A stretch of DNA of 41,278 bases, from IMG/VR virus record IMGVR_UViG_3300014682_000025, one strand, 5' to 3'. This stretch comes from a virus (taxonomy: Duplodnaviria > Heunggongvirae > Uroviricota > Caudoviricetes). Below, one piece after another: positions 1-21,450 of the stretch. Positions within the stretch are counted from its first letter, which is position 1. Each line of letters opens with the position of its first letter. Both the position numbers and the translations under genes were made by a program. Under the pieces are notes generated by a model. The model saw only the letters and a program-made list of their open reading frames with translations, was not told the origin of the DNA and did no database searches.

Positions 1-1284
1 TTACAGACTTCTGGAAGGTTGCACAGCTCTTACAACACGCGGTTGATCTTCCGCAGCGTCTTCCAGCGCACTTAAATCACGGTCTTTCACTTCTGGCATT
101 TTCAGCGCAGAGATTAAACCAATCACTGAATATGCCATGATCATAATGGCGATCGGATACCAGGATTCCGTCATGGTGCAGAAAATACCCGCCAGGATAG
201 GACCAAAACCGGAAGCGATAAGACCACCAATTTCTTTAGAAATGGCCATCCGGGTAAAGCGGTTTTTACAGCCGAACATTTCTGCCATGGTAATGTTTTC
301 CAGAGCAAATAATCCCAGCACCGCACAGTTATGAATCACAATCAGTGCAACCATAATGGTGCTCGGGGCATAGCTTTTATCTACAATGATAGAAAGCATT
401 GGCCATGCCAGCACAATCGCGGAGGTATTCATAATAATATACGGGATCCGGCGACCAATTTTATCGGATAACCAACCAAGGAACGGAATGGTCATAAAGC
501 CGAGAATCGAACTAATCATCAATGCATCTGTTGGAATTGCTTTGTTAAACAATAACGTCTGCACTAAATAGCCTGCAAGGAAAGTCTGAATTAACCCGGA
601 GTTACCCGCCTGACCAAAACGCAGCCCTGTTGCCAGCCAGAAGGATTTGCTCTGGAACATGCTACCAGCAGGTGCAGGTTTTGCTGTGGGTTGGTTGCTG
701 TCATTAACCTTCTCAAAGACCGGGCTTTCTTTCAGATTCATACGTAACCAGATAGCAAAGACCATCACGACAACGCTCGCCAGGAACGGTATACGCCATC
801 CCCACGCCAGCAGTTCCTCTTTACTGAGAATGAAGAACATAAAGGCCCAGATTGCCGTTGCGCTCAAGGTTCCGCAGTTAGTTCCCATAGCTACAAATGA
901 GGAGATAATTCCGCGCTTACCTTTTGGTGCATATTCCGCCAGCATCGTACCGGCACCGGAAATTTCCGCACCTGCACCCAACCCCTGAATAATACGCAGC
1001 GTCACCAGCAAGATGGGGGCAAAAACACCAATCTGTGCATAGGTCGGTAACACACCAATTAAGGTGGTACAGATCCCCATCATGGTGATGGTAATAAAGA
1101 GCACTTTTTTACGCCCTATTCTGTCGCCCATTTTGCCGAAAATAAATGCTCCGACAATACGCGCCACATAACCTGCACCGTAGGTTCCCATTGCCAAAAT
1201 TAACGCCATTGCCGTTGATGATTCAGGAAAAAATATTTCATGAAACACTAACGCTGCGCCGAGCGAATATAACTGGAAATCCAT
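1..1284 (-). CDS. ydfJ: MFS-family transporter, 427 aa, many hydrophobic segments; chromosomal flank of the prophage
   Basis: Full-length ORF in track; polytopic membrane protein with MFS-like GxLaDrxGrkk motif (GKMGDRIGRKK); recognised as YdfJ from memory, no search run. Confidence 0.8.
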   Translation of the reverse strand: MDFQLYSLGAALVFHEIFFPESSTAMALILAMGTYGAGYVARIVGAFIFGKMGDRIGRKKVLFITITMMGICTTLIGVLPTYAQIGVFAPILLVTLRIIQGLGAGAEISGAGTMLAEYAPKGKRGIISSFVAMGTNCGTLSATAIWAFMFFILSKEELLAWGWRIPFLASVVVMVFAIWLRMNLKESPVFEKVNDSNQPTAKPAPAGSMFQSKSFWLATGLRFGQAGNSGLIQTFLAGYLVQTLLFNKAIPTDALMISSILGFMTIPFLGWLSDKIGRRIPYIIMNTSAIVLAWPMLSIIVDKSYAPSTIMVALIVIHNCAVLGLFALENITMAEMFGCKNRFTRMAISKEIGGLIASGFGPILAGIFCTMTESWYPIAIMIMAYSVIGLISALKMPEVKDRDLSALEDAAEDQPRVVRAVQPSRSL

Positions 1285-1887
1285 AATTCACAGGTGTTTT
1301 TTCCCATCCTGTGGTTTCCTTGGCGTTTTCTAGGTTTTTTCAGATAGTTGCATTTTTTAAAAAGCATCCTAAGTTCGATCTCAGTGTCTATCTGGGGCCT
1401 ATTTCTGTCCCATATATGCCCCAAAAAAACTCCCCAACAGATAAGTAGTTTTTTCATGGATTTATGCGTAAAATCAAGAACGGCTGGAAATCATTCAATA
1501 CTCACACTATCGAAAAATTTACCAGCCAACCGCAGCACGTTCTTGCATAAGGCGTGTCTGCGGTTTTTCAACTATTCAGATACATCACTCCCATCACATT
1601 CATTCCTCCGCATCAAAGGCATATAGGCTATATCACCTTGATATTTTTCTTCTTCAGATAAAAACTGTTATCTATGTATACTTTTAAACCCAATCCGTGT
1701 AGAGTCTCTGCATAAGATAGTTTGCAGTTGCCGCTTCAGCTTGCGCCATAAACCGCCTGATTTTTGCTGCCACCTGTTAGCATTCCTGTATACCTGAAAC
1801 GACAATGTTTATCTACGAACTTTAAGAACACCCAAGATAAAAATTGTCAACTATATCATATATAACACATTACTAATTCGAGGCTAT

Positions 1888-2001
1888 ATGAACAGCATAC
1901 TGATAATCACTTCTCTCCTTATCATATTCAGCATTTTTAGTCATGCCCTAATAAAATTAGGGATTGGCATATCCAATAACCCAGACAAAACCGATGTATA
2001 A
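1888..2001 (+). CDS. Candidate small hydrophobic peptide, 37 aa ([37 protein letters not shown])
   Basis: ATG with GAGG 4 nt upstream; one predicted TM-like segment; below 60-aa track cutoff; no homology claim. Confidence 0.2.
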
Positions 2002-2069
2002 GCCAACATATCCTGAATCAGACATACAATATCGCAATGAAAATCAATAATATTTTAAGGAATATCTTC

Positions 2070-2303
2070 ATGAAATCAAAAGACACCCTAAAGTGGTTCC
2101 CTGCGCAGCTTCCTGAAGTAAGAATTATCCTAGGGGATGCTGTAGTGGAAGTAGCAAAACAGGGAAGACCTATCAATACCAGAACATTGCTTGATTACAT
2201 TGAAGGAAACATAAAGAAAAAATCATGGCTGGATAACAAAGAATTATTACAAACAGCGATATCAGTTCTTAAAGACAACCAAAATTTAAATGGTAAAATG
2301 TAA
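2070..2303 (+). CDS. ydfK: YdfK-like small prophage protein (77 aa from MKSKDTLKWF)
   Basis: ORF 2037-2303; internal ATG at 2070 preceded by AAGGAA; sequence recognised as YdfK-family. Confidence 0.75.
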   Translation: MKSKDTLKWFPAQLPEVRIILGDAVVEVAKQGRPINTRTLLDYIEGNIKKKSWLDNKELLQTAISVLKDNQNLNGKM

Positions 2304-2532
2304 TATAATAAACTTACTTTTTTATCATTTTTCCACTTTAACAACATTTTGCTCCACTTTTCCACGACCAAACAACTTGAAATCTGGTTAAAATAACACG
2401 CAACACTATTCTTCTTCCTTGAGTCCGCCCGGAACTCGAAAAACAAACCGAGTTAAAGCCATTTTTCACAAAATCGATTTTGGGTCTCACCAAAATTACG
2501 GGGTTGCATACGCATTCGTTTATTTTCGAACG

Positions 2533-2572
2533 TGTACATACAAATATGTACAAAAATAATCAAAATTATTTT
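2533..2572. promoter_or_regulatory. Two adjacent perfect 20-bp dyads (TGTACATA-CAAA-TATGTACA and AAAATAAT-CAAA-ATTATTTT) about 50 bp upstream of pin
   Basis: Read directly from sequence; function unknown. Confidence 0.3.
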
Positions 2573-2619
2573 CTGAGATGCATTATGATATGAACACCAA
2601 TTTCGTATAGAATCTCACT

Positions 2620-3210
2620 ATGTCTCGAATTTTTGCTTACTGTCGGATATCAACGCTGGATCAGACCACCGAAAATCAACGCCGGGAAATCGAAAGTGCA
2701 GGTTTTAAAATCAAACCTCAGCAAATAATCGAAGAACACATTAGCGGCTCAGCAGCAACCAGTGAGCGTCCTGGTTTTAACCGGTTGCTTGCTCGCCTGA
2801 AATGTGGTGATCAATTGATTGTGACAAAACTGGATCGCCTTGGTTGTAATGCAATGGATATCAGGAAAACAGTGGAACAACTGACCGAAACAGGTATCAG
2901 AGTGCATTGCTTAGCATTGGGGGGCATTGACCTGACCAGTCCAACAGGAAAAATGATGATGCAAGTAATTTCAGCAGTCGCTGAATTTGAACGAGACCTT
3001 TTACTTGAACGCACTCATTCCGGGATAGTAAGAGCCCGCGGCGCAGGGAAACGTTTTGGTCGACCACCTGTGTTAAATGAAGAACAGAAACAGGTGGTAT
3101 TCGAACGAATTAAGTCAGGTGTAAGTATAAGTGCCATTGCCCGGGAATTCAAAACCTCGCGGCAAACCATTTTAAGAGCCAAAGCAAAACTTCAGACACC
3201 TGACATATAA
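2620..3210 (+). CDS. pinQ: Serine recombinase / DNA invertase of the Gin/Hin/Pin family, 196 aa
   Basis: N-terminal resolvase catalytic domain (YCRISTLDQ, Ser11) and C-terminal HTH; sits next to tail fibre genes as in Mu, P1 and e14. Confidence 0.9.
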
Positions 3211-18800: not shown

Positions 18801-19076
18801 TTACTCAATAAAGATCATTGGCTTACCGTTAAAGCGTTCATGCCGTGTGACCGTCCATTGTTGTCCGTCATAAACAACGCGATCCCCGCGCCGTGGGCGG
18901 TATCCCGAAGAAAACACCACCAGAGAGACCGCAGGTCCGGACAGAGCATTCAGCTCTGCCAGTGTTTCTCCCGGGATCACAGTCATATCGACATCATTAA
19001 TCGAGGCTGTCTTTCCCATCTTTCTGACCGTGATCGCATCCATACGCGCTGCCAGCCGGGAAAAGGGATCAGACAT
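18801..19076 (-). CDS. Small head-tail joining protein at the lambda FII position
   Basis: 91 aa; assigned by position only. Confidence 0.45.
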   Translation of the reverse strand: MSDPFSRLAARMDAITVRKMGKTASINDVDMTVIPGETLAELNALSGPAVSLVVFSSGYRPRRGDRVVYDGQQWTVTRHERFNGKPMIFIE

Positions 19077-19392
19077 TGAGTTTTACCGGCACTTCTTCTG
19101 CACTGGTTCCGGCATCTGCCCAGACAACCCCGACCAGCGGATCAGAGCCGCTGTTAGTCAGCTGAACTTTTCCGGACTTCAGATAAACCTTCTTACCCGT
19201 TTTCATATCATCCGTTTTCAGCTTAGGCAGCATAAACACACCTTCGGTCATGCCGTCGCCTGTTTCACCCTGTGGAATATCGGTCAGCGCCACCGCAAAA
19301 ACATCACCCACCTGCACCAGATCTCCGCTGCTGATGGCTGCACTGGCAACAATCGCCACCGTTTTTCCTTCTTCTACAAAATTCTTTGCCAT
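19069..19392 (-). CDS. Small protein at the lambda FI position (107 aa from MAKNFVEEGK), possibly DUF2190-like
   Basis: Internal ATG at 19392 with GGAGA upstream; position immediately after the capsid gene. Confidence 0.45.
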   Translation of the reverse strand: MAKNFVEEGKTVAIVASAAISSGDLVQVGDVFAVALTDIPQGETGDGMTEGVFMLPKLKTDDMKTGKKVYLKSGKVQLTNSGSDPLVGVVWADAGTSAEEVPVKLNV

Positions 19393-19407
19393 AACTGTCT
19401 CCGCACA

Positions 19408-19454
19408 GCCCCGTTCAGGGGCTGATTTCAGGTACAAAAAAAGCCCTTACGGGC
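19408..19454 (-). terminator. Two hairpins just after the capsid gene (AGCCCC-GTTCA-GGGGCT; GCCC-GTAA-GGGC plus T7)
   Basis: Read from sequence; the second has a T-tract on the minus strand. Confidence 0.4.
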
Positions 19455-19478
19455 CATCAGAGTTGTTGTCTGCGACGT

Positions 19479-21437
19479 TTACGCCGTACATTTCACCAGA
19501 CCGCGGTGATCAACTGGCGCGACACCGGCGTCAATACGCACTTTCGTTGTCACGCCATCCACACTGAAGCCCTCCATCTGATCAATATATGGCGTATCCA
19601 CACCGTTGAGATAAGCCACTTCAATCGTATCGGAGCCTTTTGACGCAGCCAGGTAGAAGGTGGTCTGGCTGTTATCATCAAGACGAGGCTCTGCAATAAC
19701 GGTCGCAAAATCTTTCACCGGGTTAATAATACCGGCGTTAATGTCAGCCCCCTTGACACTTGAGGAGCGAATGACCTGGTTAGCAACAGACTCCATCGCC
19801 GTCGGTACCAGTACGAACGCAGGACGAATATTCAGATGACGCTCCCCCTCTTTCTGAACGCGCATCAACTGGCGGGCTTTATCCAGCGATGCCACGTCCA
19901 TTGCAGCGCTCTCCAGTACGTTTGCATGTTTCGCTTTATCGAACAGACTTACATTATCTGTGGAGATTTTCGGGTTAGACGTCAGAATGGCATAAACCAG
20001 ATCGGCAATAGTGGATTTCGCCGCACGGCCCAGTTTCATCGGGACATCGGTCAGCATATTCAGATCATCATTGATAATGGCCTGACGGGTGATACTGAAC
20101 AGCTCGCCATAGGTCGCCAGTGCAATAGTGGCCTGTTTATCTCCGGTGGTGACGTATTTATATTCCGCCCCTTCACGCACCTGACGTAGAGCACTGAAGC
20201 CCCCCATACCCACACGATGGGCAATTTTAAAATCAGACAACTGACCTTTCCGCGTCCACTGTTCATAGGTTTCAGGGGCATCTTCCCAGCCCTGCAGAAT
20301 GGCTTTGTTCGCAACATCCAGCAGAATATTACCGAAGTCAGACGTACTGTGTGTGAACGCCGCACCGACCATCTGCATCGGGTTATAACCGGAAACCCCA
20401 ATACCCCGTTCAGTTAGTGACATACGGGCATATTCACGCAGGGTCATCCCGTTGTAGACATTATCACGTTCGTTTTTTTCAAATCCGGCACGCGCCATCA
20501 GCGCCTGGCGAATCCCGTCCCCCACAAAATTACCGTTACCGGCATAAATATGAGCCGGGGTATTTTTATTGGATGGCGTGGACTCGCGCCCCATCTCGTT
20601 CAACAGCTTTTCACGGGCCTGCTCCAGCGAACATTCAGGATCGGCAAGACACTGGGCCTGCAGCGTCTGATAACGCCCGCCAAACATGGCAAACAGATCA
20701 TTAATACCGTTTACACGCGCTTTTTGCTCTGCCAGTACCTGCGCACGGATACTGTTTTCATCCACCACGGGTGCTGCTGCCTGCACTGGCGTCCGGGAGG
20801 CTGCAGGTTCATCATCCTGTACGCGTGGAGCACTGTTGCGTGGCGGAGTAATCATGTTTCGAATGGATTCCGGCATCTTTTTAAATTCCTCTGTACGTTT
20901 TGACTGAATACATGCCATTGCCTTAACGGCTGGTGTCACCTGATCAGCAAATCCCTGTGCCAGACATTCGGCACCGGACATCCAGGTCTCATCCGCCAGC
21001 ATGGCAGCAATTTCATCGGTGGTTTTCCCGGTTTTCTGTGCATAAGCGGGTAACAGAACCGCCTCAACTTTATCGAGCAGGTCGGCATAGGTGCGCATGT
21101 CCTCCGCATCACCGCCCGTAAAGCCAAATGGTTTATGAATCATCATGAAGGAGTTTTCCGGCATAATGACCGGGTTTCCCACCATCGCAATGACCGACGC
21201 CATTGACGCCGCCACACCGTCGACATAAACGGTAATGGACGCACCATGTGTTTTCAGTGCATTAAAAATGGCGATGCCTTCAAAGACATCGCCACCCGGT
21301 GAATTAATATGGAGATTAATGTGGGTGATATCGCCCAGTGCATTCAGATCACTGATAAACTGCTTCGCTGTAACACCCCAGAAACCAATCTCGTCATAAA
21401 TATAAATATCCGCGTCACTCTGGTGACCTGCCTGCAT
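19479..21437 (-). CDS. Fused ClpP-like prohead protease / scaffold / major capsid protein (about 652 aa from MQAGHQSDADIYIYDEIG)
   Basis: N-terminal ClpP-like region (INSPGGDVFEG, HKPFGF), then an Ala/Gln-rich linker, then an HK97-fold-like capsid domain; track ORF 19479-21698 overlaps the portal, so an internal start is used. Confidence 0.75.
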   Translation of the reverse strand: MQAGHQSDADIYIYDEIGFWGVTAKQFISDLNALGDITHINLHINSPGGDVFEGIAIFNALKTHGASITVYVDGVAASMASVIAMVGNPVIMPENSFMMIHKPFGFTGGDAEDMRTYADLLDKVEAVLLPAYAQKTGKTTDEIAAMLADETWMSGAECLAQGFADQVTPAVKAMACIQSKRTEEFKKMPESIRNMITPPRNSAPRVQDDEPAASRTPVQAAAPVVDENSIRAQVLAEQKARVNGINDLFAMFGGRYQTLQAQCLADPECSLEQAREKLLNEMGRESTPSNKNTPAHIYAGNGNFVGDGIRQALMARAGFEKNERDNVYNGMTLREYARMSLTERGIGVSGYNPMQMVGAAFTHSTSDFGNILLDVANKAILQGWEDAPETYEQWTRKGQLSDFKIAHRVGMGGFSALRQVREGAEYKYVTTGDKQATIALATYGELFSITRQAIINDDLNMLTDVPMKLGRAAKSTIADLVYAILTSNPKISTDNVSLFDKAKHANVLESAAMDVASLDKARQLMRVQKEGERHLNIRPAFVLVPTAMESVANQVIRSSSVKGADINAGIINPVKDFATVIAEPRLDDNSQTTFYLAASKGSDTIEVAYLNGVDTPYIDQMEGFSVDGVTTKVRIDAGVAPVDHRGLVKCTA

Positions 21438-21450
21438 CCTGAACCAGGAA

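What the first reader, a model, noticed from the sequence alone, without database searches (positions are those of the whole stretch)
19479..21437. Prohead protease, scaffold-like linker and capsid protein in one reading frame
A ClpP-like protease domain, an Ala/Gln-rich linker and an HK97-fold-like capsid domain are read in one 652-aa ORF, unlike lambda's separate C, Nu3 and E genes. The track ORF extends 260 bp further upstream into the portal gene; the likely start is the ATG at 21437.
Basis: partly seen in the sequence, partly recalled or inferred. Interest (0 to 1): 0.4.

Follow-up and report, generated by a model that had tools for sequence, protein, structure and literature searches.

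The report
Fused protease–scaffold–capsid phage head gene
This is the already-described "tripartite" head gene of Gifsy-2-like lambdoid prophages, in which the head-maturation protease, a scaffold segment and the major capsid protein are one reading frame; the proposed start codon is wrong, and sequence comparisons suggest a second, internal start that would make a protease-less scaffold–capsid protein.

Summary
One uninterrupted minus-strand ORF encodes a ClpP-like protease, a linker and an HK97-fold capsid domain (Pfam E 4.6e-36 and 3.8e-55).

It is not new. It scores 987 bits (cut-off 475) on NCBIfam NF045540, [quoted passage not shown]. It is 99% identical to the gene in phages cdtI and mEp460, and 70% identical over its full length to the Gifsy-2 "tripartite capsid gene" (Effantin et al. 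2010). The block occurs in 2184 of 5426 complete E. coli genomes.

- Residues upstream of it (Ser-Trp-Phe/Tyr) are conserved as protein.
- That codon is Ile in Gifsy-2, Fels-1 and Pseudomonas phages.
- The likely start is GTG 21506, behind AAGGAGG and overlapping the portal gene by 56 nt, as lambda C does. The product is 675 aa.

One new lead emerged. Every homologue examined has a Met in the linker behind a Shine-Dalgarno-like motif that is kept by synonymous codon choice. Here this is ATG 20876 (Met211). The region just upstream has the lowest synonymous diversity in the gene, and the least mRNA structure lies around it. This suggests a nested 50.7-kDa scaffold–capsid product, like lambda C/nu3. 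It is inferred, not shown.

The parts
19479..21506 (-). Complete head gene (675 codons plus stop): ClpP-like prohead protease, scaffold segment and HK97-fold major capsid protein in one frame.
   Evidence: The ORF is continuous. NF045540 scores 986.6 bits against a cut-off of 475. PHROG 133 matches over the full length. RefSeq annotates the same 2028-nt CDS, WP_001136587.1.
21512..21518 (-). Shine-Dalgarno AAGGAGG, 5 nt upstream of the GTG start at 21506-21504. It lies inside the portal coding sequence.
   Evidence: Anti-SD duplex energy is -11.6 kcal/mol. The same SD-plus-start arrangement recurs in about 25 of the 62 related loci scanned. Lambda C is analogous.
21435..21437 (-). Probably an internal codon.
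   Evidence: Anti-SD energy is -2.2. The aligned codon is Ile in Gifsy-2, Fels-1 and MD8. Across 130 homologues it is I 78, M 38.
21450..21506 (-). N-terminal extension (residues 1-19). It is variable, predicted disordered, and encoded almost entirely in overlap with the portal gene's 3' end (56 nt, 21451-21506).
   Evidence: pLDDT below 50 for residues 1-16. The length of the N-terminus ahead of Trp21 varies from 2 to 47 residues among homologues.
20931..21449 (-). Conserved Ser-Trp-Phe motif (residues 20-22) and ClpP-fold protease domain (residues ~21-192). Ser101 (21204-21206) and His124 (21135-21137) are invariant. Glu173 (20988-20990) sits at the place of ClpP's catalytic Asp.
   Evidence: Pfam PF00574. 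Alignment to solved ClpP structures. S101 and H124 are 130/130 and E173 is 126/130. Foldseek to ClpP structures gives TM 0.75-0.82.
20887..20891 (-). Internal Shine-Dalgarno-like GAGGA (codons 206-207), 10 nt upstream of ATG 20876.
   Evidence: Codon 206 is xAG in 49 of 49 non-redundant homologues although the residue varies (E/Q/K). It is the only one of 29 E/Q/K columns at 100%. Codons 198-206 have the lowest synonymous diversity in the gene (0.48 against a mean of 0.885).
20874..20876 (-). Met211: candidate nested start for a 465-aa (50.7 kDa) scaffold–capsid product. Inferred, not shown.
   Evidence: ATG is invariant in 49/49. Anti-SD energy is -6.0, comparable with the portal (-7.1) and decoration (-6.6) gene starts. 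The least-structured mRNA segment lies here. Equivalent SD-plus-Met pairs occur in 10 of 10 distant homologues.
20766..20843 (-). Hypervariable Pro/Ala-rich disordered linker (residues 222-247).
   Evidence: pLDDT below 50. The region is indel-rich in alignments. Composition.
20586..20759 (-). Three-helix Ala/Gln-rich block (residues 250-307): the presumed scaffolding domain.
   Evidence: AF2 helices 250-273, 280-288 and 294-307 with pLDDT 86-96. The block is conserved in alignments. The scaffold role is inferred by analogy with the HK97 delta domain (PMC10275583).
20535..20579 (-). Disordered, indel-prone junction (residues 310-324). Most likely zone of the maturation cleavage that frees the capsid domain.
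   Evidence: pLDDT below 50. Alignment gaps fall here. The cleavage itself is not shown.
19482..20528 (-). HK97-fold major capsid domain (residues 327-675, 38.0 kDa).
   Evidence: Pfam PF25209 E 3.8e-55 and PF10124. A profile hits solved Mu GpT-type capsid proteins 8rkc/8rkx at E 1.8e-9. Foldseek to a viral major capsid protein gives TM 0.78. Mass.
19432..19455 (-). Terminator-like hairpin (GGCCCGTAAGGGC) and T-run, 24 nt after the stop codon.
   Evidence: A rho-independent terminator is annotated at the same place in phage mEp213.
21451..22959 (-). Portal gene (lambda family). Its last 56 nt overlap the head gene in another frame.
   Evidence: Pfam PF05136 E 6.4e-82. RefSeq coordinates.
19069..19392 (-). 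Head decoration/cement protein gene (DUF2190, Phage_cement_2). It is the syntenic partner of the fused gene.
   Evidence: Pfam PF09956 E 9e-21. PHROG 122 'head decoration'. A Phage_cement_2 gene follows the fusion gene in 8 of the 10 distant loci; in the other two the downstream gene is cut by the contig end.

Best explanation
This is the head-assembly gene of a Gifsy-2/cdtI/mEp460-type lambdoid prophage.

Translation most likely starts at GTG 21506, behind AAGGAGG and inside the end of the portal gene. It yields a 675-aa (73.5 kDa) polyprotein with four parts:
- a short variable N-terminus;
- a ClpP-fold serine protease (Ser101, His124, Glu173);
- a disordered linker followed by a three-helix scaffold segment;
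- an HK97-fold major capsid domain.

By analogy with Gifsy-2, HK97 and lambda (inferred, not shown here), the capsid domains co-assemble with the portal into a T=7 procapsid. The protease and scaffold parts point inwards. Covalent attachment replaces the separate targeting of a protease. The protease then cuts away everything N-terminal of about residue 310-326, leaving a ~38-kDa capsid protein. The shell expands on DNA packaging and is cemented by trimers of the downstream DUF2190 protein.

An additional inferred step is a second ribosome-binding site inside the gene (GAGGA, 10 nt, ATG at Met211, 20876). It probably also produces a 465-aa scaffold–capsid protein without the protease. The ratio of protease to coat protein would then be set by two start sites, as in lambda C/nu3.
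For: Domain and family membership:
- Pfam ClpP plus capsid domains.
- NF045540 at 987 bits against a cut-off of 475.
- PHROG 133 over the full length.

Identity to known phages:
- 99.4% aa identity to phages cdtI, mEp460, phi458 and Tritos.
- 69.6% over 100% of the length to the Gifsy-2 gene.
- That Gifsy-2 gene is described as a fused prohead protease/coat gene (PMC12315714; reference in PMC8538268). Gifsy-2 is T=7 (PMC8814770).

Structure:
- The AF2 model has pLDDT 86, with ClpP, three-helix and HK97-fold modules separated by disordered segments.
- Foldseek gives TM ~0.8 to ClpP and 0.78 to a viral capsid protein.
- A profile hits solved Mu GpT capsids.
- Catalytic Ser and His are invariant in 130 homologues.

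Start codon: with the lambda C parallel.

Nested start:
- ATG is invariant and xAG-GAx is kept in 49/49. This is unique among 29 comparable columns.
- Codons 198-206 are the synonymous-diversity minimum of the gene.
- The least mRNA structure lies here.
- An SD plus Met occurs in the linker of 10 of 10 distant genes at the DNA level. Mann-Whitney p = 9e-7 against 242 other internal ATGs.
- All 130 homologous proteins in alignment A5 have a linker Met, and in 77 it is followed by Pro.

Synteny: portal, then fusion gene, then cement protein; portal upstream in 7 and Phage_cement_2 downstream in 8 of the 10 distant loci, the rest cut by contig ends.
Against: - No protein-level data were available here. 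The cleavage sites, the mature N-terminus and the existence of the 50.7-kDa product are all inferred.
- I could not read Effantin et al. 2010. I do not know which protein species they saw or whether they considered internal initiation.
- Met211 itself is not conserved outside the enterobacterial/Pseudomonas/Shewanella clade (M in 36 of 130). The internal Met sits at a shifted position in distant members.
- The GAGGA-to-ATG spacing of 10 nt is longer than optimal.
- Part of the motif is forced by conserved Glu/Asp residues.
- The acidic triad residue is Glu rather than ClpP's Asp.
Confidence: 0.85

Rival explanations
1. A single 652-aa polyprotein starts at ATG 21437, just after the portal stop and translationally coupled to it. 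It is the only product.
For: ATG 21437 lies 13 nt after the portal stop codon. GenBank records of phages cdtI and mEp460 annotate this start. The NF045540 model begins near this residue.
Against: - Anti-SD energy is -2.2, at background level.
- The aligned codon is ATC/ATT in Gifsy-2, Fels-1, MD8, Sodalis, Ferrimonas and others.
- The upstream Ser-Trp-Phe/Tyr motif is conserved as protein, and Trp21 is conserved in 122 of 130.
- Distant homologues begin 2-7 residues before that Trp.
- RefSeq uses GTG 21506.
Confidence: 0.07
2. The 675-aa polyprotein is the only product, so every coat subunit carries its own protease. The Shine-Dalgarno-like motif and Met in the linker are incidental, or act as a translational pause between domains rather than as a start.
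For: - The gene is described in the literature as a single composite gene.
- Half of the AGGA motif is dictated by conserved acidic residues.
- Met211 is not conserved family-wide.
- With Met at 3.9% frequency, a Met somewhere in a 54-95-residue linker is not rare.
Against: - The third position of codon 206 is G in 49 of 49 although the amino acid varies. No other E/Q/K column behaves this way.
- Codons 198-206, just upstream of Met211, have the lowest synonymous diversity in the gene.
- In distant clades the linker protein sequence is not conserved, yet an SD-like motif sits 6-11 nt before a Met in 10 of 10. Pairing energies are far below those of other internal ATGs (p = 9e-7).
- A pause signal would not need the ATG.
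- There is precedent: nu3 is nested in frame in lambda C.
Confidence: 0.4
3. The fusion is an artefact. A frameshift, sequencing error or decay in a defective prophage has joined separate protease and capsid genes.
For: The window is a prophage. Databases do contain erroneous 1159-aa portal-protease-capsid 'fusions' caused by indels.
Against: - The same uninterrupted gene is present in isolated phages.
- It occurs in 2184 of 5426 complete E. coli genomes.
- It occurs in 287 contig stretches of species-representative genomes.
- It occurs in well over 100 clusters at 50% identity.
- A curated HMM exists for the fused architecture.
Confidence: 0.01

Closest known systems
Salmonella phage Gifsy-2 'tripartite capsid gene' (STM1034.3n; Effantin et al. 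2010, Virology 402:355)
   Same: Same architecture (ClpP-like protease, central ~200-residue segment, capsid protein) and 69.6% aa identity over the full length. Same neighbours: lambda-family portal upstream and a DUF2190 protein downstream. Same NCBIfam family.
   Different: Gifsy-2 has Ile where this gene has Met24, and a longer annotated N-terminus (696 aa). Its experimental data (T=7 capsid, decoration trimers) exist only for Gifsy-2 and are transferred here by homology.
Phages cdtI, mEp460, phi458, Tritos, Ayreon and HannyBb (E. coli lambdoid phages)
   Same: 98.9-99.5% aa identity and identical length from the shared ATG. This is essentially the same gene.
   Different: Their records name it variously 'head maturation protease', 'protease/scaffold', 'Nu3' or 'major head protein', and mostly start it at the downstream ATG.
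Phage lambda C / nu3 / D / E
   Same: The gene order is the same: portal, protease, scaffold, capsid. Lambda's protease gene also starts with GTG behind a strong SD inside the portal gene's end. Lambda's scaffold nu3 is translated from an in-frame internal start of C, which is the model for the nested start proposed here.
   Different: Lambda's protease is an S49 family peptidase, not ClpP/S14. Lambda's capsid gene E is separate and lies after D. Lambda's decoration protein gpD is a different family from PF09956.
Phage HK97 gp4 / gp5 (and T5)
   Same: A scaffolding (delta) domain is fused to the N-terminus of an HK97-fold capsid protein and removed by the prohead protease (PMC10275583). The proposed Met211 product (116-aa scaffold part plus 349-aa capsid) would have exactly this layout.
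   Different: The HK97 protease is a separate gene of a different family. No hit to that family was found here. HK97 has no decoration protein.
Herpesvirus UL26 / UL26.5 and phage Mu I / Z (own knowledge)
   Same: A protease–scaffold long form and a nested, in-frame, more abundant scaffold-only short form share a C-terminus.
   Different: In those systems the capsid protein is a separate gene. The herpes protease has a different fold.

Membership tests
NCBIfam NF045540 (scaf_prot_MCP1): ClpP-like prohead protease/major capsid protein fusion protein (Gifsy-2 type) | Whole-protein HMM score above the curated cut-off (475 bits). | tested here: met
   986.6 bits, E 6.4e-297, covering model positions 2-651 of 652.
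NCBIfam NF045540 (Gifsy-2 type) | N-terminal ClpP-fold (S14-like) protease domain with catalytic Ser and His. | tested here: met
   PF00574 E 4.6e-36. NF045542 'head maturation protease, ClpP-related' scores 217 bits against a cut-off of 120. Ser101 and His124 align to the ClpP catalytic residues and are invariant in 130 homologues. Fold TM is ~0.8. The third triad position is Glu173 (126/130), not Asp.
NCBIfam NF045540 (Gifsy-2 type) | C-terminal HK97-fold major capsid domain in the same uninterrupted frame. | tested here: met
   PF25209 E 3.8e-55. Profile hit to solved Mu GpT capsids at E 1.8e-9. AF2 model plus Foldseek TM 0.78 to a viral major capsid protein. No stop codon in the frame.
NCBIfam NF045540 (Gifsy-2 type) | Head-module synteny: lambda-family portal upstream, cement/decoration protein downstream. 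| tested here: met
   for the window. for relatives.
NCBIfam NF045540 (Gifsy-2 type) | Proteolytic removal of the protease and central domains to give the mature capsid protein; T=7 decorated capsid. | not testable with these tools
   This needs virion proteomics or cryo-EM. It is known only for Gifsy-2 (PMC8814770 Table 1; Effantin et al. 2010, not readable here).
Lambda-type head genes (C / nu3 / E) | Protease of the S49 (SppA-like) family. | tested here: not met
   The SppA model TIGR00706 scores 21.8 bits against a cut-off of 155. The best matches are ClpP/S14. Lambda C is annotated as an S49 family peptidase.
Lambda-type head genes (C / nu3 / E) | Capsid protein encoded by a separate gene. 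| tested here: not met
   The capsid domain is in frame with the protease and there is no intervening stop.
Lambda-type head genes (C / nu3 / E) | Scaffold translated from an in-frame internal start of the protease gene. | tested here: inconclusive
   Comparative evidence supports an internal start at Met211. No protein or initiation data are available.
HK97-type head genes (gp4 protease, gp5 delta-capsid) | Separate prohead protease of the HK97 gp4 family. | tested here: not met
   No Pfam hit to that family. The protease is ClpP-like and fused.
HK97-type head genes (gp4 protease, gp5 delta-capsid) | Helical scaffolding domain fused directly to the N-terminus of the capsid domain. | tested here: met
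   Three confident helices (residues 250-307) sit immediately before the capsid N-arm. The scaffold function itself is inferred.

The most novel reading that the evidence does not exclude
The 'tripartite' gene is really two nested genes. In every clade of this family, a ribosome-binding site is embedded in the linker. Here it is GAGGA, 10 nt, then ATG at 20876 (Met211). It drives synthesis of a protease-less scaffold–capsid protein (465 aa, HK97 gp5-like), which would form the bulk of the shell. The full-length 675-aa form delivers a limited number of protease molecules. Protease-to-coat stoichiometry would then be set by two start sites, as with lambda C/nu3 and herpesvirus UL26/UL26.5, but with the capsid protein itself as the shared C-terminus. 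I found no mention of this in the papers I could search. I could not read the primary Gifsy-2 paper.
Probability: 0.55. Interest if true: 0.45.

Novelty: already known. Interest (0 to 1): 0.28.

Why it matters
The finding as submitted has little weight. The fused protease–scaffold–capsid gene has been described since 2010, has its own curated annotation model, and sits in about 40% of complete E. coli genomes.

Two practical points follow:
1. Public phage records name this gene inconsistently ('Nu3', 'terminase protein', 'head maturation protease', 'major head protein'). Many start it at an ATG that comparative data show to be internal. Automated capsid-protein detection has also missed Gifsy-2 (PMC8814770).
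2. If the nested start is real, it would explain how a phage whose protease is covalently tied to its coat protein avoids packing 415 proteases into each procapsid. It would extend the nested protease/scaffold strategy of lambda, Mu and herpesviruses to a case where the coat protein is part of the nest. This can be tested cheaply in inducible E. coli prophages.

Tried and rejected
- **First AlphaFold run.** The alignment had 27 sequences and gave pLDDT 41, which is unusable. I repeated it with 130 sequences.
- **PDB profile search with alignment A2.** It was contaminated by full-length rows and returned only ClpP hits. I redid it with a capsid-only alignment.
- **Foldseek against the PDB.** The list was filled with ClpP chains, so the capsid part was judged from the viral library and the profile search.
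- **The primary paper.** Effantin et al. 2010 is not held under its DOI or PubMed id. Searches for virion proteomics or N-terminal data on this gene family found nothing usable.
- **-1 frameshift site at TTT AAA AAG before Met211.** Considered because, as in dnaX, an SD-like motif lies upstream. Rejected because the heptamer is imperfect and not conserved in homologues.
- **Programmed portal-to-protease frameshift.** Suggested by 1159-aa database proteins. Rejected because the junctions differ between entries and nearly all are singletons.
- **Met197 and Met137 as internal starts.** Met197 is Ala in Pseudomonas and most of the family. Met137 has an SD-like GGAGG only 2-3 nt from the ATG.
Full report

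Yes. On the minus strand a single open frame runs from 21698 down to the stop at 19479-19481. From the ATG at 21437 it reads 652 residues without interruption. In that protein, Pfam finds CLP_protease at residues 23-168 (E 4.6e-36) and Phage_capsid_4 at 354-649 (E 3.8e-55), with a weaker Mu-like gpT match. The flanking genes are a lambda-family portal (21451-22959) upstream and a DUF2190/Phage_cement_2 decoration protein (19069-19392) downstream.

**2. What is it?**

It is a member of a curated family. NCBIfam NF045540, [quoted passage not shown], scores 986.6 bits against a cut-off of 475. PHROG 133 matches end to end.

- The DNA is 98.6-99.3% identical to isolated E. coli phages, including cdtI, mEp460, phi458, Tritos, Ayreon and HannyBb.
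- At the protein level it is 69.6% identical over 100% of its length to the Gifsy-2 gene, and 72% to Fels-1.
- The Gifsy-2 gene is the "tripartite capsid gene" of Effantin et al. 2010. [quoted passage not shown] Gifsy-2 is listed as a T=7 capsid (PMC8814770).
- The 4.1-kb block around the gene is present in 2184 of 5426 complete E. coli genomes. RefSeq names the gene by the NCBIfam name.
- The best-matching genome places the block in a lambdoid prophage next to ydfJ, with Qin-type genes.
- A scan of one genome per species found 287 contig stretches that encode a relative. Most of the 80 retrieved were Gammaproteobacteria, and most matched over nearly the full length of the fusion.
- A search of 1.84 billion cluster representatives returned well over 100 full-length fusion clusters at 36-60% identity among the top 150.

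**3. Anatomy**

Numbering is from GTG 21506 (675 aa). With a 130-sequence alignment, AlphaFold gave a confident model with mean pLDDT 86:

| Residues | Feature |
|---|---|
| 1-16 | disordered |
| 21-192 | ClpP fold |
| 203-219 | two short helices |
| 222-247 | disordered (Pro/Ala-rich, hypervariable, indel-prone) |
| 250-307 | three confident helices (Ala/Gln-rich, the presumed scaffold) |
| 310-324 | disordered |
| 327-675 | HK97 fold, with N-arm helix and long spine helix |

Supporting fold and sequence evidence:
- Foldseek matches solved ClpP structures at TM 0.75-0.82.
- It matches viral major capsid proteins at TM up to 0.78, and phage ClpP-like proteases that carry scaffold tails.
- A capsid-only profile finds the solved Mu GpT-type capsid proteins 8rkc/8rkx (E 1.8e-9).
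- Ser101 (in AASMAS) and His124 (in MIHKP) align with ClpP's catalytic Ser and His, and are invariant in 130 homologues.
- The position of ClpP's Asp holds Glu173 (126 of 130), followed by invariant Thr-Trp.

**4. The start codon**

RefSeq starts the gene 69 nt upstream. The evidence favours the upstream start:

1. GTG 21506 is preceded by AAGGAGG at a spacing of 5 nt. It is the only strong Shine-Dalgarno-plus-start in the frame. Anti-SD pairing is -11.6 kcal/mol, against -2.2 for ATG 21437.
2. The codon aligned with that ATG is ATC or ATT in Gifsy-2, Fels-1 and Pseudomonas phage MD8, and in many genome loci. Across 130 homologues it is Ile 78, Met 38.
3. The residues just upstream, Ser-Trp-Phe/Tyr, are conserved as protein. 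Ser is encoded by TCC, AGC, TCG or AGT, and Trp21 is present in 122 of 130.
4. Distant homologues begin only 2-7 residues before that Trp.
5. Lambda C is built the same way: a GTG start, a GAGGAGGAG motif (-12.0 kcal/mol) and a 20-nt overlap with portal gene B.

The gene therefore spans 19479-21506, overlaps the portal gene by 56 nt, and encodes 675 aa (73.5 kDa).

**5. A second, internal start (inferred)**

I looked for internal starts because 415 covalently attached proteases per T=7 shell seemed like a lot.

Within a set of 49 homologues below 93% mutual identity:
- Met211 (ATG 20876) is invariant.
- Codon 206 is always xAG (GAG, CAG or AAG, with the residue varying E/Q/K) and is followed by GAx in 47 of 49. 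That places AGGA 10 nt before the ATG.
- Of 29 alignment columns dominated by E/Q/K, this is the only one with 100% G-ending codons. Lys203 is AAA in 45 of 45, including in GC-rich Pseudomonas.
- Codons 198-206 have the lowest synonymous diversity in the whole gene: 0.48, against a mean of 0.885 and a next-lowest window of 0.73.
- The mRNA around codons 203-217 is the least structured segment across the 49 sequences.

In more distant relatives (36-50% identity):
- Met211 is not kept.
- Each protein nevertheless has a Met in the otherwise unconserved linker, preceded by K-E-E, K-G-E or similar.
- At the DNA level all 10 genes I could fetch have an SD-like motif 6-11 nt before that ATG. It is AAAGAGG in six.
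- Anti-SD energies are -3.9 to -9.4, against a median of -1.9 for 242 other internal ATGs (Mann-Whitney p = 9e-7). In the close clade, Met211 averages -6.46 against -1.57 for 1127 other ATGs.
- In the window, Met211 scores -6.0, similar to the real starts of the portal (-7.1) and decoration (-6.6) genes. It is stronger than lambda's nested nu3 start (-2.7).

The product would be 465 aa (50.7 kDa): a 116-residue scaffold part plus the 38-kDa capsid domain. This is the layout of HK97 gp5 (PMC10275583).

This evidence is comparative only. I rate it at about 0.55.

**6. How it most likely works**

Shown here:
- the domain content;
- the catalytic residues;
- the continuity of the frame;
- the synteny;
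- the conservation patterns.

Inferred from Gifsy-2, HK97 and lambda:
- Capsid domains assemble on the portal into a T=7 procapsid, with the protease and scaffold inside.
- The tethered protease cuts in the disordered junctions, most likely within residues 310-326 for the final cut.
- The fragments leave, the shell expands on packaging, and the DUF2190 protein cements it.
- The two start sites would set the protease dose.

**7. Rivals**

- A 652-aa product from ATG 21437 is unlikely (section 4).
- A single 675-aa product with an incidental SD-plus-Met remains possible (about 0.4).
- An artefactual fusion is excluded by conservation. Database proteins that also fuse the portal (1159 aa) have different junctions, and nearly all are singletons, so they are errors.

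**8. Verdict**

The nested start is the only part that might be new.

Noticed in passing
window 21451-21700 (portal/head gene overlap); proteins P0003, P0006, P0007, P0008, P0043, P0070: Public collections hold ~1080-1159-aa 'portal + protease + capsid' proteins that are 99-100% identical to this locus. The frame switch falls at different places in different entries, and nearly all are singletons. They look like indel errors or mutations, not programmed frameshifting.
   Followed up: yes
window 19432-19455 (minus strand): A terminator-like hairpin (GGCCCGTAAGGGC plus a T-run) lies 24 nt after the capsid stop codon. A second hairpin (CAGCCCCTGAACGGGGCTG, ~19405-19423) lies just before the decoration gene start. 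Phage mEp213 has an annotated rho-independent terminator at the equivalent place.
   Followed up: partly
The capsid function is often not named at all.
   Followed up: partly
AP000400.1 (phage VT1-Sakai), hit H82: The VT1-Sakai copy of this gene (77.6% aa identity) is split by an IS629 insertion.
   Followed up: no
window 20898-20900 (Lys203 codon): Lys203 is AAA in 45 of 45 homologues that have Lys there, even in GC-rich Pseudomonas. A second synonymous site is therefore frozen 24 nt upstream of ATG 20876. It may be an A-rich enhancer of the internal ribosome-binding site, or part of another RNA signal.
   Followed up: partly
window 20988-20990 (Glu173): The position of ClpP's catalytic Asp is Glu in 126 of 130 family members, followed by invariant Thr-Trp. 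The neighbouring Asp172 is not conserved. A Ser-His-Glu arrangement would be a small departure from canonical ClpP.
   Followed up: partly
window 1-3000 and 26000-32000: G+C content drops to 0.35-0.40, against 0.52-0.60 in the head and tail genes. This is typical of mosaic lambdoid early, lysis or accessory regions. In the best-matching genome (L002) these flanks carry Qin-type genes (cspI/B/F, hokD, dicB, pinQ, tfaQ).
   Followed up: no
window 18801-19076 (minus strand): The 91-aa ORF after the decoration gene matches Pfam 'Gifsy-2' (PF13856). Pfam describes that family as 'ATP-binding sugar transporter from pro-phage', and RefSeq names the protein 'DNA breaking-rejoining protein'. By position it is more likely a head-tail joining protein, so the family names look misleading.
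   Followed up: no
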